Shown here: in pieces, positions 52,543-63,998 of the stretch
Layout of the letters: each line of letters opens with the position of its first letter
Position numbering within the stretch: position 1 is the stretch's first letter
IMG/VR virus record: IMGVR_UViG_3300023174_000122
Span: 21,344-85,343 of that record
Direction: 5' to 3' (one strand)
Origin: a virus
DNA: 64,000 bases
The notes under the pieces: generated by a model
The model's database searches: none
What the model was told of the DNA's origin: nothing
Seen by the model: only the letters and a program-made list of their open reading frames with translations
Position numbers and translations under genes: made by a program

Positions 52543-53184
52543 TTATACTAATGTCAAAAGATATTTTAATTGATTTAGCGAACCAAGCATTTCATCTCTT
52601 ATATTTAATAAATCTGAATCTTGAACTTTATCTAGCATATCATTCAAACTAATCAAAAATCTAATATAATTATTTGTTAATCCAAGAAAATCTGTATCTT
52701 TATAGTTAGCAAGAGTAAGATTAAATGTACCAGCAGCGATTACTCTACCATATTTGCCCATGTATGTTTCAATGAATTCATCAGTATTTTCCATCAAACT
52801 ACTTACAATTTCGTCAAATGATTTATGTTGTGAAAATGAGGTTGTTTGCCAATGTAAGATTTTATATTGGTGTTGCATTTGCAGAAGAGTTGTCTGAATT
52901 AATTCGCCCTTACCATTGTTTTCTGCTTTAATTTCTTTTACTTCTGAGGCTGGTGCAGTTACTGCTGTATTTATTGGTTCTTTAATTTTATTAATATTTT
53001 TAATATCTTCTGTAAAATCTACTTCAATTTCGTTAGCTTTAGATTTGTTTTTTGGATGGCTAAAAGTATTAAGACAAATTGCTACTTTTTGATCATTTGG
53101 CATTTCATCTTCTTTAAGGGAATGCATGCAACGCCCCATATAGTCGTTTTGTTTTTCGTTATCTTTTCTTTGAGGTATAGGCAC
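52543..53184 (-). CDS. Dps/ferritin-like protein (DUF5856-like) with an N-terminal extra domain
   Basis: HWQT.SFSQHK.FD...DEFIE..MGKYG...DLLNIRDEM...LKYLLTL. Confidence 0.8.
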   Translation of the reverse strand: MPIPQRKDNEKQNDYMGRCMHSLKEDEMPNDQKVAICLNTFSHPKNKSKANEIEVDFTEDIKNINKIKEPINTAVTAPASEVKEIKAENNGKGELIQTTLLQMQHQYKILHWQTTSFSQHKSFDEIVSSLMENTDEFIETYMGKYGRVIAAGTFNLTLANYKDTDFLGLTNNYIRFLISLNDMLDKVQDSDLLNIRDEMLGSLNQLKYLLTLV

Positions 53185-53192
53185 ATCAGCTA

Positions 53193-53198
53193 TTACAC
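53193..53198 (-). promoter_or_regulatory. GTGTAA candidate late-promoter motif
   Basis: GTGTAA-N8-GTG(53184). Confidence 0.6.
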
Positions 53199-53199
53199 G

Positions 53200-53775
53200 T
53201 TATTTACATGGGTTAGCTATACTATTAGAAGTATTATTAATCTCATTAAATATCACTTTGGATAAAGCGTCGGCTTCTATATAGTAAGTCAATTCTAAAC
53301 CATTATTCCAATAATACCTATCATCTTTTTTATAGAATCTATTGGTATAATCATCTTTTCCAACTATATAACAAGGTCTAACTATTGAATAGTTTTTAAT
53401 GTTATCTATAATAAAATCTTCGCACTCTTTTTTATTATGAGCATATCTAGCCATTTCATACATATCTGGACTTACATTTTGAAATGGGATACCTTCAACC
53501 GCGCTAGTTGATATAAATATATATCTATTAAACTTTAAAGACTGATAAGTATTTTTAAATTGATTTAAATTATAACAAGAAAAGTCAACTACAACATCAT
53601 ATTCTTTATTTTTTATATTGAAGCAATATTTTTCATTGTCTCTATCTATAATAATATCTGGAGTTTTTGTAATTCCTCTGTTGGCTAGAATTAAGTTATA
53701 GTCACTATTAAGAGATACATAGTCTACAAAATTCTTACCTACGAATTTACTACCGCCGAGTATTAGGATATTCAT
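53200..53775 (-). CDS. NAD-dependent epimerase/dehydratase family protein (short)
   Basis: GGSKFVG, NRG, YIFIST, YAHNK and RP..IVG. Confidence 0.8.
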   Translation of the reverse strand: MNILILGGSKFVGKNFVDYVSLNSDYNLILANRGITKTPDIIIDRDNEKYCFNIKNKEYDVVVDFSCYNLNQFKNTYQSLKFNRYIFISTSAVEGIPFQNVSPDMYEMARYAHNKKECEDFIIDNIKNYSIVRPCYIVGKDDYTNRFYKKDDRYYWNNGLELTYYIEADALSKVIFNEINNTSNSIANPCK

Positions 53776-54363
53776 TTATAGAATTCTCCAGTATCTGTTT
53801 TCAATTACTTCAAATTTTTTATTATTTTCTAAACAATATTGATTCACAGCTTTCGCTACATCTGGCGCAAAAACAAAGTCGTCTCCAAAAATAACACCAT
53901 TCGGACTTAAAAGATTTGAATAATTATTTATGTCTGCATATACATCTTCATACATATGAGATCCGTCTATATATATTAAATCTGCTTTGAGATTCATGTC
54001 TTTAAATTTTTTATAATAAAATAAAGAAGTATTTGGACATGGAACTATATAGTCTTCACATTTTTCAAAAAGAATATTATTAAGAAATTTGTAATAAATT
54101 TGAGGGTAACCATTTTTTAAATCTTCTTTTTCTAAATCCCAAGTCCCTAAAAAAGTATCGACGCAGTATATTTTGCATTTGATATTATTTCTTTTTAAAA
54201 TATTAGCCATATTAATAGCTGACTGCCCCTTCCAAGTACCCACTTCTATAATAACTTTAGGTTCAACTTGCAAATCTAAAATAAGTTTTTCAAAAATTGG
54301 ATGATCGCCACCCCAACCAGTTAAATCTCTTGCAAAAAATGGTAAATCTTCGTAAATGCTCAT
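53776..54363 (-). CDS. Class I SAM-dependent methyltransferase (Methyltransf_24-like)
   Basis: IEVGTWKGQS, CVDTF, DLIYIDGSHMY and GVIFGDD. Confidence 0.88.
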   Translation of the reverse strand: MSIYEDLPFFARDLTGWGGDHPIFEKLILDLQVEPKVIIEVGTWKGQSAINMANILKRNNIKCKIYCVDTFLGTWDLEKEDLKNGYPQIYYKFLNNILFEKCEDYIVPCPNTSLFYYKKFKDMNLKADLIYIDGSHMYEDVYADINNYSNLLSPNGVIFGDDFVFAPDVAKAVNQYCLENNKKFEVIENRYWRIL

Positions 54364-54374
54364 TACTAATAGTA

Positions 54375-55130
54375 CTAACTAATGTTATGATTGTGCATTA
54401 TATTTAAAATATCGTCGATAGTTTTAAATGTTTTAATATTTTTATTTTGATGCCAATTCAAAACAGAAAGATTTTGTTCTTTCCATTCCCAATAATAAAT
54501 ATAAGTTGGAATACCAATACTTGTGGCTATATGCGCCATGCCACTAGTTATCCCTATAAAAATTTTAGATTCAGATAAAGTCTTAATTGAGTTCGTGAGT
54601 TCTCCTTCGTGTTCTCCTACTATAGTAGCTTTGTAATTTTTTAAACATAACATTTTTCTATATATATCATTTTTAAAGTCTGAAGAAATATTTCTATGGT
54701 TATCTATCCAATTTGGTTTTGCTACTTCGTATATGCCTTTATTTTGATTATAAAATTTTGATTCTATTTGGATGCTGATTTTATTTATGTTATTTAAATT
54801 TTTCTTTAATTTAGTAGGCACTGGTAGATTATTACAAAACAATGCGCTCTCTGGTATAGTAAAGGATCTAGTAAATTCATTATGTTGATTTTGAGGTTCA
54901 TCTACTATTTCAATTTCTGCTCCAAAAGAATCTAAAAGATTAAAACATTCTTTTATTTTTTCTTCGTAATTATGATTATAGTTTGTTTTAAAGTTTTCAA
55001 AACTATAAGGATATTTTGATATATAAACTTTACTTTTATTTTGTTTGCTCAAAAGAATTACTCCGCTTGCTATTAGCCAAATATCACCTAAATGAGCTCC
55101 ATCTGCAATTCCATAGATTTTTTTATTCAT
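54375..55130 (-). CDS. GT9-like glycosyltransferase, paralog 1
   Basis: GAHLGDIWL and FIGITSGMAHIATSIGIP. The likely start is ATG 55130. Confidence 0.7.
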   Translation of the reverse strand: MNKKIYGIADGAHLGDIWLIASGVILLSKQNKSKVYISKYPYSFENFKTNYNHNYEEKIKECFNLLDSFGAEIEIVDEPQNQHNEFTRSFTIPESALFCNNLPVPTKLKKNLNNINKISIQIESKFYNQNKGIYEVAKPNWIDNHRNISSDFKNDIYRKMLCLKNYKATIVGEHEGELTNSIKTLSESKIFIGITSGMAHIATSIGIPTYIYYWEWKEQNLSVLNWHQNKNIKTFKTIDDILNIMHNHNIS

Positions 55131-55131
55131 A

Positions 55132-55863
55132 TTAATTATATATGATACCGTGCTCATTGAAAATATTTAATATATCTTCAAATGTTTTAAATTTTTTAAT
55201 ATTTTTATTTTTATGAAATTGATCCAAATATATATCTTCATTTTGTTTAAAATCATATAAATAAACTGGTATTCCAACACTAGATCCAATATGAGCCATT
55301 CCACTATCAATACCTATAAATATATTTGATTCAGCTATTTTGTTAATAGAGCTTTCTATTCCAATATGCTCTCCAACAGAATTTATTTTTAGATTTTGAA
55401 AACTAATAAAATTAAGAAAAATTTTTTCTAATTCTAGATATGAAATATTTCTGTATTCATTTTGTGCGCTATTTTTTCTAGAGGTATAAATCCCTTTTTC
55501 TTTATCAAAAAATAATGAAGCTAGTTGTAAAGATATAGTATTCTTGTCTTTAGGTTTGTGTTTAATTTTTGTAAATACAATAGGATCTTCATTTAAAAAA
55601 GCTCCTCTGCTTATTGGAAAGTGAATAGTATTTTCATCATATTGATTTTGAAAATCATCAACTATTTCAATTTTTGCTTCTGTTGTGTCTAAAACATTTA
55701 AACATTCTATAATAATATCTTTTCGATCATAATTTTCGTAATCTGCGTATCTAGACAAATAGATTATTTCTTTATTTTTTTTACTATACAATATAGCAGA
55801 ACTTATAGATAACCATATATCTCCAAAATGCGCTCCTGGATGTAATCCATAAATTTTTTTCAT
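55132..55863 (-). CDS. GT9-like glycosyltransferase, paralog 2
   Basis: GAHFGDIWL and FIGIDSGMAHIGSSVGIP. Confidence 0.72.
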   Translation of the reverse strand: MKKIYGLHPGAHFGDIWLSISSAILYSKKNKEIIYLSRYADYENYDRKDIIIECLNVLDTTEAKIEIVDDFQNQYDENTIHFPISRGAFLNEDPIVFTKIKHKPKDKNTISLQLASLFFDKEKGIYTSRKNSAQNEYRNISYLELEKIFLNFISFQNLKINSVGEHIGIESSINKIAESNIFIGIDSGMAHIGSSVGIPVYLYDFKQNEDIYLDQFHKNKNIKKFKTFEDILNIFNEHGIIYN

Positions 55864-55864
55864 A

Positions 55865-56722
55865 TTATTTTACAAAGTATTGATTACAAAAGCTTAGTAA
55901 TGCTAGGATAACTGTTGGTGCGAAGAACCATAACCTTAAAAAAATTAGCATTCCAAAATGTAAACCTAGTGCGCAAAGAATGGCGAGAGGTCTTGTCTCT
56001 TTTAAAAAGAAAAGAATTGGTGAAAAAAATTGAAAACACATCGTTCCATAATTTAAAGTTTTTGCAATAAATAAATTTAAAAACATGCTTTTGCATATTC
56101 TTCTTCCCCATGATTCAGATAAAGCAGCATTTCTTAAGGCTAATCCTTCTTGCCAGTATTTGTCTTTAAGTTTGTGTATGCTGGAAAGAAAATAACTACT
56201 TATAACTGTAAGCTGTATGATTCTTAAGCTCCAGCCATCTATGGTCTCGAGATTAGAAGAAAAGCCTAAAAAATAATCAATTGAATATTTAGAGCCACAA
56301 TCTATTAATAGTAATGAAAATAACATTACTCTAGCAAATACATCTGCATCACTAAATATTATTGGCATTATTCTAGCTTGTAAAGATGAGTAAGTAATAA
56401 AAAAAATTAATATTGATAAATTTGTTAGAAAACCAAAAATAGAAGTTAAACCAGAAACTACGAATAAAAATAAAATAATAATTTGGGCTAGCTCTGATCT
56501 GAGTATAAATCTAAAATTAAATAGCGAACTTTGCCTTATGTAGGCTCTGTCGTAAAAGACTGAACTGTATAAACCATTTGGTTTAGAAAAAAGAATGACA
56601 TACCTAAATATAAATAGAAACGAAGACAAAAAATATCCGCAATATAATATTCTTAATATTGCAGCAAAATAACTGGATATTTTATATTCAAAGAAAAAAT
56701 TATATATATCTAAAGCGCTCAT
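55865..56722 (-). CDS. HTTM-domain multi-pass membrane protein (vitamin K-dependent carboxylase / SdpB-like)
   Basis: LRI...GFLT...YSID...LRIIQ...YFLSSIHKL...W.EG.AL...LHFG pattern, with 6-7 TM segments. Confidence 0.8.
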   Translation of the reverse strand: MSALDIYNFFFEYKISSYFAAILRILYCGYFLSSFLFIFRYVILFSKPNGLYSSVFYDRAYIRQSSLFNFRFILRSELAQIIILFLFVVSGLTSIFGFLTNLSILIFFITYSSLQARIMPIIFSDADVFARVMLFSLLLIDCGSKYSIDYFLGFSSNLETIDGWSLRIIQLTVISSYFLSSIHKLKDKYWQEGLALRNAALSESWGRRICKSMFLNLFIAKTLNYGTMCFQFFSPILFFLKETRPLAILCALGLHFGMLIFLRLWFFAPTVILALLSFCNQYFVK

Positions 56723-57230
56723 CGAAGTTTTTATCTTCCAGCTTCCAAGAAAATATTAATTCCTCTTTTATTGGTTTTGATCTATTTTTTACTATTTCGT
56801 CTGTTTCAAAAGAGCTGTAAAGTGATGAAAAAATTTCAAAAGAAAGTAATTGATCGTTACGATTATAAAAATACGCTTCAATTTTTTCTTTAAAATAATC
56901 ATTCATAAATGCATTGAAATTATAAAAAGTATAATTAAAAGCCAAATGTTGTCTTACAAAATGTGGCCCTATATAAAAATTCCCAATTTTTTCATCTTTT
57001 CTTAAGTACCATACTTTTTTAGAATGCAAAGAAATTCCTACTAGTTTAATATCTCTGAATTCATTATTCATTCCTAAAAAAAGAGCAAAAGAAGAAAAAA
57101 ATCTGCTCATCTTTACAAAAGGGTCTCGTTTTTTTAAAAGTTCAATATCTGTTTGTATAGTGTTAATTAATATTTCTTGAACCAAAAAAAATAAATATAA
57201 TGAAATTATAATAATTTTAAAAAAAATCAT
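56700..57230 (-). CDS. Membrane-anchored partner of the HTTM protein (SdpA/DUF5819-like, tentative)
   Basis: N-terminal TM helix and an FALF motif. It overlaps the HTTM gene start. Confidence 0.45.
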   Translation of the reverse strand: MIFFKIIIISLYLFFLVQEILINTIQTDIELLKKRDPFVKMSRFFSSFALFLGMNNEFRDIKLVGISLHSKKVWYLRKDEKIGNFYIGPHFVRQHLAFNYTFYNFNAFMNDYFKEKIEAYFYNRNDQLLSFEIFSSLYSSFETDEIVKNRSKPIKEELIFSWKLEDKNFDERFRYI

Positions 57231-57236
57231 ATCTAA

Positions 57237-57944
57237 TTATTTATTACGTTTAATTAAATCAACTTCAGTAGATGTAGTAATAAGTTTATTTTTAGTTTTA
57301 AAGAAAAATGTTTGATATAGTCTTCCTTCTTCAAAGATGTTTGAAAATCCATCAGCTCCACTGTGAGGTTTTTGAGATCTACAAAGAATCAATCTATTAT
57401 AAACTGCACCTAAAGAGTCTATTAATTTCCAATTTTCTTTAGAAGTCATCCAATCGTAATTATTTTTCTTATTAATATTTTCCCATAAAAATAGTCCAGA
57501 ATCAATTGGCGCTTGTGGATTTAAATAAATTAAACCTACCCAATCATTATGCTCTAGCGAATTCCACCAATCGGTTACATGGTTATGAACAGCATCTCCT
57601 AATTTCTGACCAACTAATGGTTTTATATGAAATGTGCAATTCCATTTTGGGCTTTTTTTTGGTTCTTCATGATTTCTTTTGCCATCACTATCATATGGGT
57701 GTTTAGGCCTAGTCCTTTGCCAATTTTCTCTATCTAATTCCTCTCCAGTTAAGAATTCTAAATTTTTAATTAGACTTTCTGAAGATTTGAATGGGCAGTC
57801 ACGCCATTCTTTAAAATTATTTGCATACCAATCTTCTGTGCCGTAAGGTAAATATCTATCAAATGTTAGTTCATGTAAAGCGTACTGTCTTACTTTATCT
57901 GGATCTTTATAAAAATTTTCTGCAATAATGATATCTTTTTTCAA
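57237..57944 (-). CDS. 2OG-Fe(II) oxygenase (DUF6445-like)
   Basis: IAENFYKDPDKVR, HV.D, GLIYLNP, YNRLIL..H and RLYQTFF. Confidence 0.8.
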   Translation of the reverse strand: MKKDIIIAENFYKDPDKVRQYALHELTFDRYLPYGTEDWYANNFKEWRDCPFKSSESLIKNLEFLTGEELDRENWQRTRPKHPYDSDGKRNHEEPKKSPKWNCTFHIKPLVGQKLGDAVHNHVTDWWNSLEHNDWVGLIYLNPQAPIDSGLFLWENINKKNNYDWMTSKENWKLIDSLGAVYNRLILCRSQKPHSGADGFSNIFEEGRLYQTFFFKTKNKLITTSTEVDLIKRNK

Positions 57945-58831
57945 GTTAATAAATCTCCTAAAGTTTGATTAAAGTATTCAAAATAAGTTGGACTAGACTC
58001 AAGGTCATAAAATTCTTCTTTTTTCCACCGTTCAAAAGTAGACCCTGTTTCTTTTTTCTTTTTCTTTATAGCCTCTAGGTTTCTTTTAATAATATAGTTG
58101 GGGTCGCTATGAAACCAGTGAACTATTGCACTTCTATCAAATTTTGCACCAATATATCCATGATATGAATACGGACAAACTTCAAAAGCAAATAGTCTGT
58201 TATTTACTGGTTTTACTTCTTTTACCAATGAATCTGACTCGTAATTAGTATATACTCCTGTGCCTCCACCATCTTTTTCTTCTAAAGGAGACTTATTGTT
58301 TAAGTAGTAAATAATCGCTATTTGTCTAGCAATTTTAGATGTATTTGGTTGTAAATTTTTAGAGTCATCTTGGTATTCGCAATCTACACCTGTTAATTTT
58401 ATTTTTTTATTTTTGTCGTTGATTGCAGAACAAATACCAAGATCTGCATGAGACCAACCATCTCTAGAAGGTTTTTCTTTTGATCCTTTATGTAAATGCA
58501 CTGACATAGCTAAGTGTTGATTTAATTCAACGCCAAAAAGTTGGGCTATAAAATCTTTATATACTTCTTCTGCAAAAAAATTATATCCGTCTGTGAGATC
58601 TTGTTCTTTTAACCCGTATATGTAAGCGTCATAGAGCAATTCTCCAGGACCTATTTTTCCAGCAGGTTTTTCTGTTTTTAAAATAAGAGATGCAAATTTT
58701 TTACATAATTTATTATAGATCTCTTCTGTAAAAAAATTATCTATTATAGCGTGATTATAAGGCTCGCTAAATTTTTCTATTTTAATATTTTCTGATATAT
58801 AAGGGTGACAGGTTATGGGTACAGAGTCCAT
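57941..58831 (-). CDS. 2OG-Fe(II) oxygenase (prolyl-hydroxylase-like)
   Basis: HxD (HAD), AIIYYLN, GGGT, PVNNRLFAF...SYHG and R..I..W. Confidence 0.85.
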   Translation of the reverse strand: MDSVPITCHPYISENIKIEKFSEPYNHAIIDNFFTEEIYNKLCKKFASLILKTEKPAGKIGPGELLYDAYIYGLKEQDLTDGYNFFAEEVYKDFIAQLFGVELNQHLAMSVHLHKGSKEKPSRDGWSHADLGICSAINDKNKKIKLTGVDCEYQDDSKNLQPNTSKIARQIAIIYYLNNKSPLEEKDGGGTGVYTNYESDSLVKEVKPVNNRLFAFEVCPYSYHGYIGAKFDRSAIVHWFHSDPNYIIKRNLEAIKKKKKETGSTFERWKKEEFYDLESSPTYFEYFNQTLGDLLT

Positions 58832-58836
58832 AAAAG

Positions 58837-58871
58837 ATTATATTGGACAAGGCTTATTTTTTCAATATAAT
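58837..58871. promoter_or_regulatory. Overlapping bidirectional sigma70 promoters
   Basis: Minus strand: TTGAAA-N17-TATAAT-N5-ATG(58831). Plus strand: TTGGAC-N17-TATAAT-N6-ATG(58878). Confidence 0.65.
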
Positions 58872-58877
58872 AATAAT

Positions 58878-58952
58878 ATGACCATTTCTACTAGTTTAAT
58901 TTGTTTTGCTGTATTGGTTTATATATATTATTTAGTAGAAAGAGTTAAGTAA
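58878..58952 (+). CDS. Unannotated 24-aa hydrophobic membrane peptide MTISTSLICFAVLVYIYYLVERVK
   Basis: It fills the largest intergenic gap, has its own leaderless promoter, and consists of a single TM helix plus a charged tail. Confidence 0.55.
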   Translation: MTISTSLICFAVLVYIYYLVERVK

Positions 58953-58955
58953 AAA

Positions 58956-60239
58956 TTAATAAATAGCGTATTTTTGGTTTAAATAAGTTTCAACTTGCTG
59001 GCGTTCTGTTAAGGTTAATGTTCTATTATAAATTACTATTTCACATACATATGAATCAGATGCCTCTTCGTTCCCACCATTCCAAATTCCTCCACCAACT
59101 GATATTCCATTTAAAATAACTGTTGAATTAGAAGCACCGCTAGATTGTGAAACTCCATTTTGAGAAAAATCAAAAGTTGTATTTGGATCAGAAAATGCAG
59201 TTGTAATTAAAAAATCTGTTGAAGTTTGCTCTCCTTCAGCAAGCCACCCATTATCTCCTCCACCATAAAATCTATTACTATAATTACCCCATGTTCCAAT
59301 TAAAACATTACCAAAATAAGATGAAAATATTCTTCCAGTATTTGTTGATTTTTGTTTTGTAACTGAAAAGAAAGTAAATCCAGTAAGACCAAAACTAGTG
59401 TTACTTAATCCTGTGTTACTACCAACTATAAACTCTATTGCTGGTTTTCCATTTAAAAAAGAAGAAACAAAAGTTGGCGCATTTTGATTATCTGGAGTTA
59501 ATACAATACTATTTCCACTTTGATCTGCCCACTCAGTTACATAGTCTGAATTTGCTGTTGAAGTTGTAATGCTTCCGCTGATAGAACCAACTGGATAGAA
59601 TGCAACTGACGATGTTGTTGGAGATCCAGTTCCATTTACCAAAGTCCAAGCTCCAGAATAATTTGCGTTTGTATTTGTGGCTAGTAACTCGGTTGAATTG
59701 TCTAGATTAAAAAGGTTCTCTCCATTTATAAAATAAGGAAGTTTTACAAAACCCTCCGAATCTTCGTATGCGCCGAAAGTGTATGTTCCATTTGCAGGCG
59801 AATAGTCATCAGTAAATCCAGTAATAACCACTTGATTAAGACGCTGACCAAGTATACTCCAGCTTTCTCCATTGGATGAAGAAAATCCAATCGTATTTGA
59901 AATAACATATAAGAAAAATTGTTCTTCGTTAGAATCCCAAATTATTGTGTATCCATTTGTGGAAGATAGAGTATAATTATTAACTCTATATCCCTCATAG
60001 TTAAATGTCGGAACAGTTGTTGCCGTATATGTTCCATTAACACTTGGATTGCTTGTTCCAGATATTATAATCTCTGAGATATAATTAAATGAGAATTTGC
60101 TTACCCCAGCGTCAGCTTTCAACCAAAGAGATAATCCACCTAAACTTGATGGAAGAAAAGAAGCTCCTTGTCTTGGAATTTTGAAGGTTGTATTTTTTTT
60201 AAAATTTAAGTTTGCTTGTTTTTTAACTGTAAAAGACAT
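58956..60239 (-). CDS. LamG/concanavalin-like virion accessory protein
   Basis: LSLWLKADAG...VTEWADQSGN...NGKPAIEF...EIVIYNRTLT..ERQQVETYLNQKY. Confidence 0.8.
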   Translation of the reverse strand: MSFTVKKQANLNFKKNTTFKIPRQGASFLPSSLGGLSLWLKADAGVSKFSFNYISEIIISGTSNPSVNGTYTATTVPTFNYEGYRVNNYTLSSTNGYTIIWDSNEEQFFLYVISNTIGFSSSNGESWSILGQRLNQVVITGFTDDYSPANGTYTFGAYEDSEGFVKLPYFINGENLFNLDNSTELLATNTNANYSGAWTLVNGTGSPTTSSVAFYPVGSISGSITTSTANSDYVTEWADQSGNSIVLTPDNQNAPTFVSSFLNGKPAIEFIVGSNTGLSNTSFGLTGFTFFSVTKQKSTNTGRIFSSYFGNVLIGTWGNYSNRFYGGGDNGWLAEGEQTSTDFLITTAFSDPNTTFDFSQNGVSQSSGASNSTVILNGISVGGGIWNGGNEEASDSYVCEIVIYNRTLTLTERQQVETYLNQKYAIY

Positions 60240-60247
60240 AAATTATA

Positions 60248-60253
60248 TTACAC
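60248..60253 (-). promoter_or_regulatory. GTGTAA candidate late-promoter motif
   Basis: GTGTAA-N8-ATG(60239). Confidence 0.6.
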
Positions 60254-60519
60254 TACTGTTTTAAGTAGTTTTTTATATCTTTTATTAGCTTTTTTCTCTT
60301 ATTGTGTTCTAATACTGTTACAAAAGTGGCAACTGATATTGGAAAAAATATCCTAAGAAAGAACTGAAGGTGATCTTCTCTACTTAATAAATCAAAGTAA
60401 TTAATATAAAGGTCACTTAGCCCCCAAAATGTGAAAAGCATTGCTGGAATAAATGTAATGAAAAAGAACTTATCATAAGTTTTTAAATTAATCCACCAAT
60501 TTTTTATTTTCATCGCCAT
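60253..60519 (-). CDS. Small two-TM membrane protein
   Basis: 88 aa with two hydrophobic helices and a basic C-terminus. Confidence 0.6.
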   Translation of the reverse strand: MAMKIKNWWINLKTYDKFFFITFIPAMLFTFWGLSDLYINYFDLLSREDHLQFFLRIFFPISVATFVTVLEHNKRKKLIKDIKNYLKQ

Positions 60520-60527
60520 ACATAGGC

Positions 60528-60533
60528 TTACAC
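60528..60533 (-). promoter_or_regulatory. GTGTAA candidate late-promoter motif
   Basis: GTGTAA-N8-ATG(60519). Confidence 0.6.
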
Positions 60534-60537
60534 ATTA

Positions 60538-60870
60538 TTAAATTGGAGTTGCTTGATATGGAACTCCATTTGATAATACTGGTGGTACTTTATATTGAGA
60601 ATCTGTTGGAGTAGACGAAGCTCCAGAGGCTGTGTCTGGAGAACTAAAAGTAGAGAATTGAAATTCTTTTTCCATGTTAACATCATTTTCATTAACCTCT
60701 ATTTGCTTAGACATACCGTTAACTTCTAGAGCTACTGGGCTTTTATGACCTGATACATTAAGCATCATTTCGCCTTGTTCATTTTTAGTTATTTTAATTC
60801 TTATTTGATCTTCTGTATAAGAATAAGTTGTTAATAGAAATGCCGCTAATAGTATTATTGTTTTTTTCAT
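60538..60870 (-). CDS. Secreted hypothetical protein
   Basis: Signal peptide MKKTIILLAAFLLTTYSYT and an S/T/P-rich tail. Confidence 0.65.
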   Translation of the reverse strand: MKKTIILLAAFLLTTYSYTEDQIRIKITKNEQGEMMLNVSGHKSPVALEVNGMSKQIEVNENDVNMEKEFQFSTFSSPDTASGASSTPTDSQYKVPPVLSNGVPYQATPI

Positions 60871-61193
60871 AAGGTTTTATATATTGGGGTTTGGAAAACA
60901 TTGGATTTATTTTTTAAACGTACTTGTTTCATGGTATAACCTATCATCACATACAAAGGTTCTTCTGAATTTGTAGGCTTTGCAGGTTTGCCTAGACTTA
61001 AAATATATTTATGGCTATCATGGCCAATAGGTTCTGCGCTCTGGGTAAAGCAAGAACCTTCATCTGTTACATATTCAAAATCCATGCCATAATTATCTAT
61101 TTGTTGTTTTACTAAAAACGGATGAGGACTATAAACTGTATAAAAAATACTAATTGCAATACAAATGCCCACGATAAAAGGTATCTTATTCAT
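60867..61193 (-). CDS. Membrane-anchored hypothetical protein
   Basis: N-terminal TM helix. It is coupled to its neighbours by 4-nt start/stop overlaps. Confidence 0.6.
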   Translation of the reverse strand: MNKIPFIVGICIAISIFYTVYSPHPFLVKQQIDNYGMDFEYVTDEGSCFTQSAEPIGHDSHKYILSLGKPAKPTNSEEPLYVMIGYTMKQVRLKNKSNVFQTPIYKTL

Positions 61194-61408
61194 TGGATTG
61201 TAAAAATAGAATACCTACCTTTGCCTAAGCATTGGTAATAGTATCTATACTTCTCTTCTCCAACTTTATGAACTCCAAAAACTTCATCTTTAAAGTAATC
61301 CTTTAAACTAACTGTGTCGTGATCTCCAACATGTTTTTTGATCCAAGTAGAAACTTCACCAACGTTTCCTTCAAAGACTACTACTTTTCCATGACTTGTG
61401 TATTGCAT
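61190..61408 (-). CDS. Hypothetical protein
   Basis: 72-aa ORF overlapping both neighbours. Confidence 0.5.
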   Translation of the reverse strand: MQYTSHGKVVVFEGNVGEVSTWIKKHVGDHDTVSLKDYFKDEVFGVHKVGEEKYRYYYQCLGKGRYSIFTIQ

Positions 61409-61647
61409 TTTTCTGTTCCACTTGCTGTTTGTATATCTAAATTATTTTTAGTTTGTTTAGCTATTATTGATCCTATCATACTTAATATAAGAACGCAAGC
61501 AAAAATTAGAGCATAATGTGTTTTTTCTTGGGCTTTCTTCTTAGCCCTATATTGATGGAAATTACTTATGAAGGCTTCTGTATCTCTTTTTGAGGGAAGA
61601 CTTTTTTCATAATTACTTAATAATAAGTTTCTCATATGATTATCCAT
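61381..61647 (-). CDS. Single-TM hypothetical protein (anti-sigma-like topology)
   Basis: A cytoplasmic N-terminus, a basic patch, then the TM segment YALIFACVLILSMIGSII. Confidence 0.55.
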   Translation of the reverse strand: MDNHMRNLLLSNYEKSLPSKRDTEAFISNFHQYRAKKKAQEKTHYALIFACVLILSMIGSIIAKQTKNNLDIQTASGTEKCNTQVMEK

Positions 61648-61656
61648 TGCTTTATT

Positions 61657-62316
61657 CTATCTGGCTTTTGTGTCAGATTCTAATATTACACTACCATCTG
61701 TTCTTAAAAGATTTCTTGTGCTTCCATGTGGATTTTTAATTGTTTTATCTAAAGCACCACTAGAATGATTAGTAAAAGCTTTGGTAAAGTCAACTAAGAA
61801 ATAATCATTTGTATCTAATGCTAATATTTTTTTAGAATTTTCTATACCATATTCACCACCTGCTCCTCCAAAACAAGATCCTCTTTTCCAAATAGTAGGA
61901 TGTTGTTCGTTGTGTGCAGGACAACTAAATACTGTATTTGCTTTCTTTTTTTTACCTGTATATGTAACAGGAATATAGTTAGTGAGATAATATTCTATGT
62001 TAGATTTATCAACTACATTTTGAGTTGTGCCACCAAATCTACTATCGCTAATAAATGTATTAATTGTTTGACCATCTGGACCTGGAGGCAACCAACCATC
62101 ATTTTCTGCTGCAAATAATAAAATACTTGTACCCACTTGTTTCATATTCGAAGCACAAGCAGCTTGAGACGATTTACGTTTTACTGCACCAAAAGCAGAG
62201 AATGATAAGCTCATTACGAATGCCATTATGACTATTACAACTGTCATTTCAACTAATGTGAAACCAAAAAATTTTAATAATTTTGGACGTTTTAAAAGCG
62301 TGTTGGGAGTTTGCAT
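61657..62316 (-). CDS. Prepilin-type N-terminal cleavage/methylation protein with an H-X9-DG domain (PVC-type pseudopilin)
   Basis: GFTLVEMTVVIVIM, A.CASNMKQVG..I..F..ENDG.LP, F.CP and C-terminal HGSTRNLLRTDGSV (H-X9-DG). Confidence 0.9.
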   Translation of the reverse strand: MQTPNTLLKRPKLLKFFGFTLVEMTVVIVIMAFVMSLSFSAFGAVKRKSSQAACASNMKQVGTSILLFAAENDGWLPPGPDGQTINTFISDSRFGGTTQNVVDKSNIEYYLTNYIPVTYTGKKKKANTVFSCPAHNEQHPTIWKRGSCFGGAGGEYGIENSKKILALDTNDYFLVDFTKAFTNHSSGALDKTIKNPHGSTRNLLRTDGSVILESDTKAR

Positions 62317-63998
62317 TTGTTTCTCCTCACGATTCTAAGGCCTATCAAAACACTAGCACCACCTAATAGAAGTGAAAATGTAGAAGGTTCTGGAATAACA
62401 TTTACTACTCCATCTGTGGTAAAACTATTAGCATCCCATTTCAAATTTGAATTAGCAGTATCTAAATTAGGTAATGCTGCTAGTAATGTATTAACATCAA
62501 ATGCAGATGCTTCGATTGACGCAAAATTAAATAAATCGTAACTATCATTCATTTGAAATGAGTAATTATCTAATGTTTCAAATGTCCATGATGTATTAGC
62601 CCCTAATGTTAACAAACTACTTACATTGATAGCATCGTAGGTGGTACCTCTGGTAGTTGGTGCGCCTAATTGGAATTGGAATGTTCCGTTACTTCCATTT
62701 AACTCATAAGCAGTTAGCAGACCAGGACTATTGCCAGGTGCCACAGTACCACCATTTAGAGTTAAGCCCTGCACACTACCAGAGCCACCTAATGTACCTC
62801 CTGTATTTACTAAAACATCTCCTGCACTTCCATTTACTGATAGTAAACTTCCATTGATAGTTGTACTACCAATATTACCACCAGAATTTACTGTTGCTGT
62901 ACCAGAATTGACGATAACAGTTCCAGCTGTTCCTTCTACTAATAATGTGCCACCACCTACAGTACTAGTACCCAAAAGACTACCGCCTGATTTTACATTG
63001 AGTGTGCCACCAGTATTAACTGTTGATATACCAGTTCTTCCATATACATCTAATGTGCTACCATTTATAGTTGTGATACCAGAATTGCCACCAGAATTTA
63101 CTGTTGCTGTACCAGAGTTGACAACAGTCTGTCCAACTGATCCTGATATCAACAAAGTGCCACCATTAACAGTAGCTTTCGAAGATGTACCACCTGTCTT
63201 TACATCAAAAGTACTGCCTGTTGCAATAGTTGTTTCACCTACTGTACCACTATTGAGCAAGCTTCCTCCTGTGAGAGTAGAGTTACCAAGAAACCCTCCA
63301 CTATAAACTGTAGCAGTTCCTGCAGACATGGAGAATGTACTGCCAGTTCCTCTCAAGTCCAAAGTACCACCACCTTGTGTTATTGTACCAGTTGTACCAT
63401 CTACTGATACTGTAGTGGTGACGCCGATAGAGAAATTACCAATAGTCCCAGTGCTATCAACTATTAAGTTTCCTGCGTTAGCAGTTATATTACCAGCTGT
63501 ACCTTTAACTCTTAAAGTTCCACCTGATACTATCGCAGCACTAGAAGCAATAGAGCCAGCAGTATCAACTACAAATATACCATCTTGTATGGTAGTGTCT
63601 CCATTATAAGAATTGACTGCTTGAAAAGTTGCTGTTCCAGTTCCTGATTTGGTTAAACCTCTGAGCGCAGACCCTGTATTGAGTAAGGAGCCCTTAAAGA
63701 GAAAATCTCCCACACCACCTACAACGCTTGTATCTGCAACTGTTCCTCCAATATCTAATGTTCCATCAAATTGCACAGTTAAATTGGTACTGTTATTGAA
63801 CAATCTTCTGCCACCACTTGAACCTGTAGATACAGTGAGCGTATTGGCACTATTAGTAAACTGCAGTAATGTTTTGTATCCTCCATGATTGGTAAAGTTC
63901 ATATTATTACCTTGATATTGATTCATAACATAAGTAGTAACAGCAGCAGAATTAGATCCTGCTAGATCCAATGTTCCCATAGTAGAAAGACTGGTTGA
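62292..63998 (-). CDS. PEP-CTERM surface protein with autotransporter-associated beta-strand and AIDA-like repeats (5'-truncated)
   Basis: GLTKSGTGTATF...NSYNGDTTIQDG, GGTLGGSG...VAPGNSPG and C-terminal IPEPST-TM-RR. The frame stays open past ATG 63980 to the window edge. Confidence 0.92.
   Translation of the reverse strand, partial: STSLSTMGTLDLAGSNSAAVTTYVMNQYQGNNMNFTNHGGYKTLLQFTNSANTLTVSTGSSGGRRLFNNSTNLTVQFDGTLDIGGTVADTSVVGGVGDFLFKGSLLNTGSALRGLTKSGTGTATFQAVNSYNGDTTIQDGIFVVDTAGSIASSAAIVSGGTLRVKGTAGNITANAGNLIVDSTGTIGNFSIGVTTTVSVDGTTGTITQGGGTLDLRGTGSTFSMSAGTATVYSGGFLGNSTLTGGSLLNSGTVGETTIATGSTFDVKTGGTSSKATVNGGTLLISGSVGQTVVNSGTATVNSGGNSGITTINGSTLDVYGRTGISTVNTGGTLNVKSGGSLLGTSTVGGGTLLVEGTAGTVIVNSGTATVNSGGNIGSTTINGSLLSVNGSAGDVLVNTGGTLGGSGSVQGLTLNGGTVAPGNSPGLLTAYELNGSNGTFQFQLGAPTTRGTTYDAINVSSLLTLGANTSWTFETLDNYSFQMNDSYDLFNFASIEASAFDVNTLLAALPNLDTANSNLKWDANSFTTDGVVNVIPEPSTFSLLLGGASVLIGLRIVRRNKCKLPTRF
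62878..63116. repeat. 29-nt direct repeat, 210 nt apart, within the beta-helix coding region
   Basis: CCACCAGAATTTACTGTTGCTGTACCAGA at 62878-62906 and 63088-63116 (peptide SGTATVNSGG). Confidence 0.8.

What the first reader, a model, noticed from the sequence alone, without database searches (positions are those of the whole stretch)
55865..58871. Phage operon: two 2OG-Fe(II) oxygenases, a membrane partner and an HTTM (VKGC/SdpB-like) protein, leading into GTs
Seen: one promoter heads four tightly coupled genes that continue into the GT9 pair. The HTTM protein keeps the Lys of the YFxxxxxKL...W..G motif and the later His. Established: HTTM domains occur in vitamin K-dependent carboxylase, in Bacillus SdpB (with SdpA) and in linaridin CypH, all of which modify peptides. 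Inference: an undescribed phage-borne protein or peptide modification system combining hydroxylation with membrane-based carboxylation, epimerisation or dehydration. Candidate substrates are the divergent 24-aa peptide, the Cys/SP-rich protein, or host surface proteins.
Basis: partly seen in the sequence, partly recalled or inferred. Interest (0 to 1): 0.75.

Follow-up and report, generated by a model that had tools for sequence, protein, structure and literature searches.

The report
Phage split carboxylase-like membrane enzyme pair
An uncultivated freshwater phage carries a two-gene membrane enzyme related to the core of the human vitamin K-dependent carboxylase; it sits beside two separate oxygenase genes in a swap-in cargo slot, and its target is unknown.

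Summary
All four genes are real, tightly packed and under purifying selection, on a phage contig from lake water.

- **Gene D (55865-56722) is an HTTM protein.** It passes Pfam's cut-off. Its model matches only human GGCX in the PDB (TM 0.62-0.70). It keeps the equivalents of GGCX K218, W223, R276, H287 and F299, but not the Glu-binding N159/H160.
- **Gene C (56700-57230) is D's constant partner.** It is a single-pass membrane protein that always lies upstream of D and overlaps it. In size and order the pair looks like bacterial DUF5819+HTTM pairs. However, C matches neither DUF5819 nor SdpA by HMM or profile comparison.
- **Genes A and B are 2OG-Fe(II) oxygenases** with intact metal triads in this window.
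- **The "four-gene system" is two modules.** Related phages carry A-B-C-D (2-3 loci), C-D alone (3) or A-B alone (3). Of 53 relatives, 34 have nothing at this site.
- **The 24-aa peptide is not a dedicated substrate.** It is a conserved backbone gene found in at least 82 viral contigs.
- **The "GT9 pair" is not confirmed.**

Best reading: C+D form a split, quinol-dependent GGCX-like enzyme that acts on an unknown extracytoplasmic substrate. Three HTTM queries found no match in 50,697 deposited phage genomes. This scan has noted the same module before on other phage DNA.

The parts
55865..56722 (-). Gene D: 285-aa HTTM-domain polytopic membrane protein, the catalytic subunit of a GGCX-like enzyme
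   Evidence: Pfam HTTM 2e-7, above cut-off. AF2 model pLDDT 84.6. The top 15 Foldseek PDB hits are all human GGCX, TMq 0.62-0.70, prob 1.0. Profile against PDB sequences: GGCX at 1e-5, with K184 aligned to K218. Invariant residues K184, W190, G193, R244, H255. dN/dS 0.14.
56700..57230 (-). Gene C: 176-aa single-pass membrane partner of D (N-terminal TM helix plus an alpha/beta domain). It overlaps D by 23 nt.
   Evidence: Always immediately upstream of D, in 7 pairs across 6 loci. AF2 pLDDT 84, TM helix at residues 2-25. The family has only 23 representatives among 1.8 billion proteins. No Pfam, PDB or BFVD match. hhalign against DUF5819: prob 3.8%. dN/dS 0.31.
57237..57944 (-). Gene B: 235-aa DSBH oxygenase of the DUF6445 / phrog_1644 family (named 'minor coat protein' in some records)
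   Evidence: phrog_1644 at 3.4e-19. DUF6445 at 0.0068, below cut-off. H132-x-D134...H194...R208 is invariant with 3 cyanophage homologues. Homologues sit next to annotated 2OG-Fe(II) oxygenase genes in phages S-WAM2 and S-SRM01. dN/dS 0.07. One lake metatranscriptome contig covers 57560-57801.
57941..58831 (-). Gene A: 296-aa 2OG-Fe(II) oxygenase of the P4H / OGFOD1-Tpa1 type
   Evidence: Pfam 2OG-FeII_Oxy_3 at 2.7e-7 and 2OG-FeII_Oxy_4 at 1.5e-6, both above cut-off. The closest solved sequence is OGFOD1, weakly (0.011). H128-x-D130, H224 and R233 are kept in L031's copy and lost in L004's copy.
58837..58865 (-). Promoter-like TTGAAA-17-TATAAT match upstream of A (unproven)
   Evidence: An 11/12 consensus match, but such matches are not enriched over shuffles. 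The -10 box ends 5 nt before the ATG.
58881..58955 (+). Conserved 24-aa hydrophobic micro-gene; left anchor of the cargo hotspot, not specific to C-D
   Evidence: Conserved at full length in L002, L003, L004 and L031. 82 IMG/VR stretches match, 70 of them exact 24-codon ORFs.
54375..55863 (-). Genes E (55132-55863) and F (54375-55157): paralogous proteins of unknown family (44% identical).
   Evidence: No Pfam, NCBIfam, PHROG, PADLOC or PDB-sequence hit. Only a local motif is shared with the 313-aa glycosyltransferase-like gene. L005 and L111 each carry one copy.
53200..54363 (-). Genes G (53776-54363, Methyltransf_24) and H (53200-53775, short SDR-like): further cargo of the same island
   Evidence: Pfam Methyltransf_24 at 4e-18; weak NAD_binding_10 and Epimerase hits. 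They travel with A-B in L038, L093 and L111, and H follows D in L031.
52543..53184 (-). Gene I (DUF5856): right anchor of the cargo hotspot
   Evidence: Pfam DUF5856 at 2.9e-16. Present in 53 of the 82 loci that hold the 24-aa gene, and within 300 nt of it in 34 of those.

Best explanation
Genes C and D together encode a split, two-subunit membrane enzyme of the vitamin K-dependent carboxylase (GGCX/HTTM) type. D is the polytopic catalytic core. C is a single-pass subunit whose extramembrane domain most likely stands in for the luminal "clamp" part of GGCX.

By analogy with GGCX, the conserved Lys (K184) would deprotonate a reduced quinone, the host's menaquinol. Reaction of that quinol with O2 would then generate a strong base. 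The base would abstract a proton from a substrate on the outer face of the cytoplasmic membrane, possibly followed by CO2 addition.

The substrate is not a GGCX-type glutamate site, because the Glu-binding Asn/His pair is not kept.

The pair is optional phage cargo. It sits in an insertion hotspot between a conserved 24-aa micro-gene and a DUF5856 gene, in a large group of freshwater phages. A and B are cytoplasmic 2OG-Fe(II) oxygenases that form a second cargo module, which assorts independently of C-D. In this phage the two modules happen to lie side by side, together with a methyltransferase, an SDR and two genes of unknown family.

**Shown:** fold, residue conservation, obligate C-D pairing, purifying selection, modular distribution.
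**Inferred:** the C-D complex, quinol use, topology, chemistry and substrate.
For: - **D is HTTM/GGCX-like.** Pfam hit above cut-off. The only structural matches are GGCX chains, TMq 0.62-0.70. Profile match to GGCX at 1e-5, aligning K184=K218, W190=W223, G193=G226, Q/E231=D263, R244=R276, H255=H287 and F267=F299. The roles of these residues come from PMC12647623. The invariant set is shared with the HTTM proteins of two Bacteroidota DUF5819+HTTM pairs.
- **C is D's obligate partner.** It lies upstream of D and overlaps or abuts it in every locus (7 pairs). Identities of C and D fall together: 64/78, 36/47, 36/46, 33/41, 29/38, 28/34 %.
- **Same size, order and coupling as bacterial pairs.** DUF5819 (192 or 218 aa) plus HTTM (286 or 290 aa) in L021 and L022. 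D against L021's HTTM: E = 6e-10.
- **Published model for such pairs.** AF3 modelling of DUF5819+HTTM as a split GGCX-like complex, with MloH as a fused bacterial carboxylase (bioRxiv 10.64898/2026.08.19.745780).
- **A fused form exists.** The weak, Pfam-negative HTTM-family hit P0034 carries a TM helix and a W-x-L-F-x-P domain after its HTTM-like part.
- **Purifying selection.** dN/dS is 0.14 for D and 0.31 for C.
- **Modularity.** C-D without A-B, A-B without C-D, and 34 of 53 sites empty. A lake metagenome joins 53183 to 58876, skipping the block.
Against: - C has no detectable sequence or fold similarity to DUF5819, SdpA or the GGCX luminal domain. No HMM hit appears for any of 23 family members. 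hhalign gives prob 3.8%. Foldseek finds nothing in the PDB or BFVD. The "clamp substitute" role therefore rests on architecture alone.
- The GGCX residues N159/H160, which bind the Glu substrate and help trap CO2, align with D125/A126 and vary within the family. Carboxylation is therefore not implied.
- No complex model, topology test, quinone evidence or substrate was obtained.
- The host is unknown, so the presence of menaquinone is assumed.
- The only RNA evidence is one short contig in gene B.
Confidence: 0.6

Rival explanations
1. A, B, C and D act in sequence on one protein or peptide: cytoplasmic hydroxylation, then membrane-based carboxylation or another HTTM reaction. The glycosyltransferases act afterwards.
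For: The A-B-C-D order with overlapping junctions is kept in a phage whose copies are only 36-57% identical (L031). B-C-D is kept in L005. A-type and C-D genes are also neighbours in L004.
Against: - C-D occurs with no A or B anywhere on a 136-kb, 87%-complete record or on a 93-kb record.
- A-B occurs with no C-D in three loci; in L111, B is followed directly by the E/F-type gene.
- L004's A copy has lost its HxD and distal His, and L031's B copy has lost its HxD.
- 2OG oxygenases work in the cytoplasm, whereas the GGCX-type active site is extracytoplasmic.
- All these loci are one syntenic hotspot in related phages, so a shared gene order may simply be inherited.
Confidence: 0.15
2. C+D are an SdpAB-like or linaridin-like maturation pair for a ribosomal peptide toxin or signal, with a phage-encoded precursor nearby.
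For: HTTM proteins occur in the sdpABC operon and in linaridin clusters (PMC9927463). A weak language-model lead points to a cluster in which 11% of members carry SdpA (score 0.76). A conserved 24-aa hydrophobic ORF lies 1.6 kb away.
Against: - No SdpA HMM hit on the contig at E <= 10, nor in any C-family member.
- The 24-aa gene is present in at least 82 viral contigs. Among the 82 fetched stretches, only three carry C-D.
- No other conserved small ORF accompanies C-D across L002, L003, L004 and L031.
- No linaridin-type alpha/beta hydrolase or peptidase is seen.
Confidence: 0.1
3. C+D act on the quinone itself: an epoxidase or oxidase without a carboxylation substrate. This would reprogramme the host's quinone pool, respiration or redox state during infection.
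For: The quinol-deprotonating Lys and the pocket residues are kept, while the Glu-binding residues are not. From my own knowledge, not checked here: the Leptospira GGCX orthologue is reported to epoxidise vitamin K without carboxylating.
Against: A dedicated, conserved and faster-evolving partner domain (C, dN/dS 0.31) fits substrate recognition better than a substrate-free reaction. The F299-equivalent CO2-pocket residue is kept.
Confidence: 0.1
4. The pair is a non-catalytic membrane protein complex, for example for superinfection exclusion or envelope remodelling, that merely retains the HTTM fold.
For: It is optional cargo in a moron-like hotspot next to other membrane and surface genes.
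Against: The catalytic Lys, His, Arg and Trp are invariant across phage copies that are only 34-78% identical, and dN/dS is 0.14.
Confidence: 0.05

Closest known systems
Bacterial DUF5819 (PF19136) + HTTM (PF05090) two-gene modules, modelled by AlphaFold 3 as a split GGCX-like complex (bioRxiv 10.64898/2026.08.19.745780)
   Same: A small protein with an N-terminal TM helix (about 180-220 aa) lies immediately upstream of, and translationally coupled to, an HTTM protein of about 285-290 aa. I saw this directly in the Bacteroidota loci L021 and L022. The HTTM residues K, W, G, R and H are invariant across both sets. The two partners share a faint W-x-(L)-F motif at the same distance after the TM helix.
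   Different: The phage partner C does not match the DUF5819 HMM or profile. Its family is tiny: 23 representatives, all from metagenomes. No close relative of D was found in one genome each of 185,579 prokaryote species. The phage HTTM has no DCC1-like C-terminal domain. The genes are carried by a virus.
[quoted passage not shown]
   Same: The fold of the membrane core matches (TMq 0.62-0.70). Equivalents of K218, W223, G226, R276, H287 and F299 are kept.
   Different: D is 285 aa against 758 aa and has no luminal domain. N159/H160 are replaced by D/A and vary within the family. No propeptide-binding region can be identified. About 15% sequence identity.
Bacillus subtilis SdpA/SdpB (with SdpC) and the paralogous YitP/YitO/YitM
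   Same: An HTTM membrane protein encoded next to a small partner gene.
   Different: No SdpA (PF17418) match at E <= 10. No SdpC-like precursor is linked to the pair.
MloH, the fused bacterial vitamin K-dependent carboxylase of malonomycin biosynthesis (cited)
   Same: A prokaryotic HTTM enzyme with a partner-like domain. It shows that the fold can carboxylate something other than Glu.
   Different: MloH is fused and sits in a PKS-NRPS cluster. The phage pair is split and has no such context. I made no direct sequence comparison.
Cyanomyophage DUF6445 / phrog_1644 ('minor coat protein') genes that neighbour 2OG-Fe(II) oxygenase genes
   Same: Gene B belongs to this family. It again sits next to a second 2OG oxygenase gene.
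   Different: Identity is only 23-33%. The cyanophage copies lie among tail and head genes, with no HTTM nearby.

Membership tests
HTTM domain family (PF05090) | Match to the family HMM above Pfam's gathering score | tested here: met
   31.3 bits against a 27.7-bit cut-off, E = 2e-7; 32 bits in the six-frame search. L002's copy scores 51.8 bits.
GGCX-like vitamin K-dependent carboxylase | Fold of the polytopic membrane core | tested here: met
   The top 15 Foldseek PDB hits are all GGCX, prob 1.0, TMq 0.62-0.70. The next non-GGCX hit has E = 3.8.
GGCX-like vitamin K-dependent carboxylase | Catalytic Lys (K218) and neighbouring W223/G226, plus R276, H287 and CO2-pocket F299 | tested here: met
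   The HMM alignment to GGCX chains maps these to K184, W190, G193, R244, H255 and F267, all invariant or nearly so.
GGCX-like vitamin K-dependent carboxylase | Glu-substrate binding pair N159/H160 | tested here: not met
   These align with D125/A126. The family shows SDAD, TGGD and SAAE at this position. Residue roles are from PMC12647623.
GGCX-like vitamin K-dependent carboxylase | Luminal clamp / propeptide-binding domain in the same protein | tested here: not met
   D ends after the membrane core at 285 aa. Whether C supplies this function is unresolved.
GGCX-like vitamin K-dependent carboxylase | Quinol-, O2- and CO2-dependent carboxylase or epoxidase activity | not testable with these tools
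   Needs biochemistry.
DUF5819 (PF19136) | Match to the family HMM or profile | tested here: not met
   No hit at E <= 10 for C or for L002's C. None on the whole contig. None for 23 family members at E <= 1. hhalign against a 19-sequence DUF5819 alignment gives prob 3.8%, E = 0.011, over 32 columns only.
DUF5819 (PF19136) | Architecture and context: N-terminal TM helix plus a domain of about 150 aa; gene directly upstream of an HTTM gene and coupled to it | tested here: met
   compared with L021 and L022 and the preprint.
DUF5819 (PF19136) | Same fold as DUF5819 / the GGCX clamp region | tested here: inconclusive
   Foldseek of C's model finds nothing in the PDB or BFVD. The pdb_via and pdb_via_wide libraries were unavailable.
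SdpA (PF17418) / SdpAB-SdpC system | SdpA HMM match | tested here: not met
   No match at E <= 10 on the contig, and none in the C family. The only lead is a language-model score of 0.76.
SdpA (PF17418) / SdpAB-SdpC system | Linked SdpC-type precursor gene | tested here: not met
   No small ORF is specific to C-D loci. The 24-aa gene is a backbone gene of at least 82 contigs. No SdpC HMM was run.
2OG-Fe(II) oxygenase superfamily (gene A) | HMM match and HxD...H...R ligands | tested here: met
   PF13640 and PF13661 above cut-off. H128-A-D130, H224 and R233 are conserved with L031's copy. The HMM match covers only the C-terminal half, so the HxD assignment rests on the alignment.
2OG-Fe(II) oxygenase superfamily (gene B, DUF6445/phrog_1644) | HMM match and HxD...H...R ligands | tested here: inconclusive
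   DUF6445 scores 16.8 bits, below its 24-bit cut-off, whereas phrog_1644 scores 3.4e-19. The triad H132/D134/H194 plus R208 is invariant in 4 sequences but lost in L031's copy. No PDB sequence hit.
GT9 glycosyltransferases (genes E, F) | Match to Glyco_transf_9 or any glycosyltransferase family | tested here: not met
   No hit in Pfam at E <= 0.1, or in NCBIfam, PHROGs, PADLOC or PDB sequences. There is only a 29-column local motif match to gene J.

The most novel reading that the evidence does not exclude
A virus encodes a working quinol-dependent, GGCX-type enzyme. During infection it would use the host's menaquinol and O2 to carboxylate, or otherwise modify by carbanion chemistry, an exported phage or host envelope protein or glycan. 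This would be vitamin K-type post-translational chemistry in a phage-bacterium interaction. The fast-evolving partner C would act as the exchangeable substrate-recognition subunit.
Probability: 0.25. Interest if true: 0.85.

Novelty: new variant of a known kind. Interest (0 to 1): 0.6.

Why it matters
HTTM/GGCX chemistry is known from animals and from one bacterial natural-product enzyme, and split DUF5819+HTTM pairs in bacteria have only just been modelled. A compact phage version (285 + 176 aa) is conserved and under purifying selection. It is optional cargo in a defined hotspot, which makes it a tractable minimal system. It could show what bacterial HTTM pairs do, how the small subunit contributes, and whether phages use quinol-driven chemistry to alter the cell envelope.

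It also exposes a well-defined cargo hotspot in a widespread group of freshwater phages.

Tried and rejected
- **C against known folds and families:** Foldseek found nothing in the PDB or BFVD. The PDB-sequence profile search gave nothing. Pfam was negative for all 23 family members. The ESM Atlas gave only unnamed clusters and a 0.76 lead to an SdpA-containing cluster.
- **hhalign:** C family against DUF5819 and against the C-terminal domain of the fused protein P0034. Each time only the same short W-x-L-F region aligned, never significantly. I rejected this as proof of homology.
- **The search for related loci:** the C alignment had no stretch conserved enough to search with. Three distant C-family representatives gave no viral loci. 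D's alignment in genome contigs found nothing.
- **gmd query:** I used the phage's gmd gene only to obtain bacterial genome handles. Its best hit, a 1-kb "Proteobacteria MAG" contig from Lake Lanier at 87% identity, is probably a mis-binned phage fragment and is not host evidence.
- **Deposited phage genomes:** tblastn of three HTTM queries against 50,697 genomes gave no match.
- **PADLOC:** no defence-system match apart from a generic 2OG domain.
- **Reads:** the runs were contigs only, so they give no transcript ends or expression levels. Joints with short sides (21 nt) were ignored. I report the single 244-nt RNA-library contig in gene B only as a hint.
- **Positive-inside topology reasoning** for D was ambiguous and I dropped it.

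Full report
**Setting.** The window is the right-hand 64 kb of an 85-kb IMG/VR virus record, with a CheckV completeness estimate of 56%. It is a phage:
- DNA polymerase (phrog_405, 8e-155), a tail-fibre match and a virion structural match;
- DnaB helicase, primase, ThyX and a RecA-like protein;
- many sugar-nucleotide and transferase genes, including gmd, an rfbB-like dehydratase, GT34 and methyltransferases.

Near-identical DNA is present in lake and freshwater metagenomes from several independent studies.

**The observation.** The junctions are a 4-nt overlap, a 6-nt gap and a 23-nt overlap. The same tight packing continues through E, F, G, H, I and J, so nothing marks off a four-gene operon.

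A good -35/-10 match lies at 58865-58837. However, such matches are no commoner here than in shuffled sequence (53 found, 63 expected), and its -10 box ends only 5 nt before the ATG.

**Gene D is a GGCX-like HTTM protein.**
- Pfam HTTM scores above its cut-off (2e-7).
- An AF2 model (pLDDT 84.6) matches only human GGCX in the PDB. The top 15 hits have prob 1.0 and TMq 0.62-0.70; the next non-GGCX hit has E = 3.8.
- A profile of the phage family finds GGCX chains at 1e-5. Converting chain numbering to full-length numbering (+31) gives this mapping:

| GGCX | Gene D |
|---|---|
| K218 | K184 |
| W223 | W190 |
| G226 | G193 |
| D263 | Q231 (Q or E in the family) |
| R276 | R244 |
| H287 | H255 |
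| F299 | F267 |

- K184, W190, G193, R244 and H255 are invariant across 13 phage copies and two bacterial HTTM proteins. F267 is nearly invariant.
- According to PMC12647623, K218 deprotonates the hydroquinone, F299 and H160 trap CO2, and N159/H160 hold the substrate Glu.
- The phage family does not keep N159/H160: they align with D125/A126, which vary.

The quinol-activating machinery is therefore conserved, and the GGCX-type glutamate site is not.

**Gene C is D's obligate partner, but its family is unresolved.**
- C has an N-terminal TM helix (residues 2-25) followed by an alpha/beta domain (AF2 pLDDT 84).
- An exhaustive HMMER search of 1.8 billion representatives found only 23 relatives, all small proteins from metagenomes.
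- None of them hits any Pfam family. Six-frame searches of the contig with DUF5819 and SdpA find nothing at E <= 10.
- Foldseek finds no match in the PDB or BFVD.

To test DUF5819 properly I fetched real DUF5819 genes from Bacteroidota genomes (2 of 301 genomes). In both, a DUF5819 protein of 192 or 218 aa lies directly upstream of a 286- or 290-aa HTTM protein. That is the same size, order and coupling as C-D, and D matches that HTTM at 6e-10.

A 19-sequence DUF5819 profile against the C family gives only prob 3.8% (E = 0.011). The aligned stretch is the W-x-L-F motif that follows the TM helix. The same short stretch aligns with the C-terminal domain of a 512-aa fused form, P0034, a weak and Pfam-negative HTTM-family hit.

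C therefore works like DUF5819 in architecture and context, but membership is not shown. The preprint 10.64898/2026.08.19.745780 models DUF5819+HTTM as a split GGCX-like complex. That is the closest described system.

**Genes A and B.**
- A is a P4H/OGFOD1-type 2OG-Fe(II) oxygenase. Its H128-x-D130, H224 and R233 are conserved with the L031 copy.
- B belongs to DUF6445/phrog_1644. Its H132-x-D134...H194...R208 is invariant with three cyanophage homologues. In S-WAM2 and S-SRM01 those homologues sit beside annotated 2OG oxygenase genes, with no HTTM nearby.
- The ligands are not universally kept. L004's A-type copy lacks the HxD and the distal His. L031's B has Y-K-N in place of HxD.

| Gene content | Loci |
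|---|---|
| A-B-C-D | the window; L031 (77.6-kb contig; 57/49/36/46% identity; all junctions overlapping) |
| (?)-B-C-D | L005, which is cut by the contig end |
| C-D alone | L002 and L003; no A or B anywhere on the 136-kb (87% complete) and 93-kb records |
| Two tandem C-D pairs, a methyltransferase and a degenerate A | L004 |
| A-B without C-D | L038, L093, L111; in L111, B is followed directly by the E/F-type gene |

C and D are never apart: 7 pairs in 6 loci.

**A cargo hotspot.** It is conserved at full length in L002, L003, L004 and L031.
- A degenerate DNA pattern for it hits 82 IMG/VR stretches. Seventy are exact 24-codon ORFs; the rest are longer variants or lie at locus edges.
- It is a backbone gene. 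The 88-aa TM gene accompanies it in 65 of the 82 loci, and the DUF5856 gene I in 53.
- In those 53 loci, the distance from the 24-aa gene to gene I is 45-300 nt in 34. It is about 600 nt, with an Hsp20 gene, in six. It is 2-5.7 kb only where cargo of the A-H type is present.
- In the window the distance is 5.7 kb.
- A lake metagenome contains contigs that join 53183 to 58876, skipping the whole block.

The A-H block is therefore optional cargo at a defined hotspot, with A-B and C-D as separately assorting modules. The 24-aa gene is not a dedicated precursor.

**Selection.** Window versus L005, by Nei-Gojobori:

| Gene | B | C | D | F | G | H | I |
|---|---|---|---|---|---|---|---|
| dN/dS | 0.07 | 0.31 | 0.14 | 0.14 | 0.14 | 0.15 | 0.18 |

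All genes are under purifying selection, and C is the least constrained. dS ranges from 0.10 (I) to 0.85 (D), which indicates a mosaic history.

**Rarity.**
- D has no PHROG.
- Three HTTM queries give no tblastn match in 50,697 deposited phage genomes.
- D's alignment found no close relative in one genome each of 185,579 prokaryote species.
- Full-text searches found no paper on a phage HTTM.
- Earlier notes of this scan describe the same module in other phage contigs and reached the same two-module reading. I treated them as leads only.

**Mechanism.**
- *Shown:* the fold and the catalytic residues of the quinol-activating core; an obligate small membrane partner; selection; modular cargo behaviour.
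- *Inferred:* C and D form one enzyme. It uses host menaquinol and O2 to generate a strong base at the outer face of the membrane. It acts on a substrate other than a GGCX-type Gla site, possibly one of the exported proteins this phage group encodes (signal-peptide proteins, a PEP-CTERM protein, a pseudopilin).
- Whether the outcome is carboxylation, epoxidation alone or other chemistry is open.
- A and B most likely hydroxylate cytoplasmic targets independently.

**Not confirmed.** E and F as GT9 enzymes, and a single promoter for the four genes.

**Limits.** Two structure-alignment libraries were unavailable. No complex prediction was possible. RNA evidence is one 244-nt contig in gene B from a lake metatranscriptome.

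Noticed in passing
window 58881-58955 (+): A 24-codon ORF encoding a hydrophobic micro-protein with a conserved Cys9 and a C-terminal E-R-x-K. It is conserved in at least 82 IMG/VR contigs, 70 of them as exact 24-aa ORFs. It is a backbone gene of a large freshwater phage group, and its function is unknown.
   Followed up: partly
window 53184-58880, and 53 IMG/VR loci (L027-L111): An insertion hotspot lies between the 24-aa gene and the DUF5856 gene. It is empty (45-300 nt) in 34 of 53 relatives, holds an Hsp20 gene in six, and holds 2-5.7 kb of variable modification genes in a few. Lake-metagenome contigs join 53183 to 58876.
   Followed up: yes
L004 5460-8993 (IMGVR_UViG_3300032266_001600): Two tandem C-D pairs are separated by a methyltransferase-like gene. 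An A-type protein follows that has lost its HxD and distal His.
   Followed up: partly
L031 7382-8098 (IMGVR_UViG_3300021091_005330): This phage keeps A-B-C-D, but its B copy has Y-K-N where the HxD metal ligands should be. It may be an inactive oxygenase.
   Followed up: no
window 58956-60239 (-): The 427-aa Ser/Thr/Gly-rich protein upstream of A matches a virion structural PHROG in its C-terminal half. It is itself variable: a metagenome contig joins 58952 to 60260 without it, and only 12 of 82 related loci carry a homologue.
   Followed up: partly
window 52543-57944 compared with L005: Synonymous divergence between two close relatives varies eightfold along the island (dS 0.10 for gene I, 0.77-0.85 for B, C and D). 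This points to recombination between lineages within the island.
   Followed up: partly
window 60253-63998 (-): A run of membrane and exported proteins: an 88-aa TM protein, a 110-aa signal-peptide protein, a prepilin-type pseudopilin and a PEP-CTERM repeat protein. Parts of it recur in related phages (homologues in 65, 27, 4 and 15 of the 82 loci). It hints at a PVC-type host and at possible envelope substrates.
   Followed up: partly
L007 (RFNV01000013.1, 1052 bp): A 1-kb contig binned into a Lake Lanier "Proteobacteria" MAG encodes a gmd that is 87% identical to the phage's. It is probably a mis-binned phage fragment.
   Followed up: no
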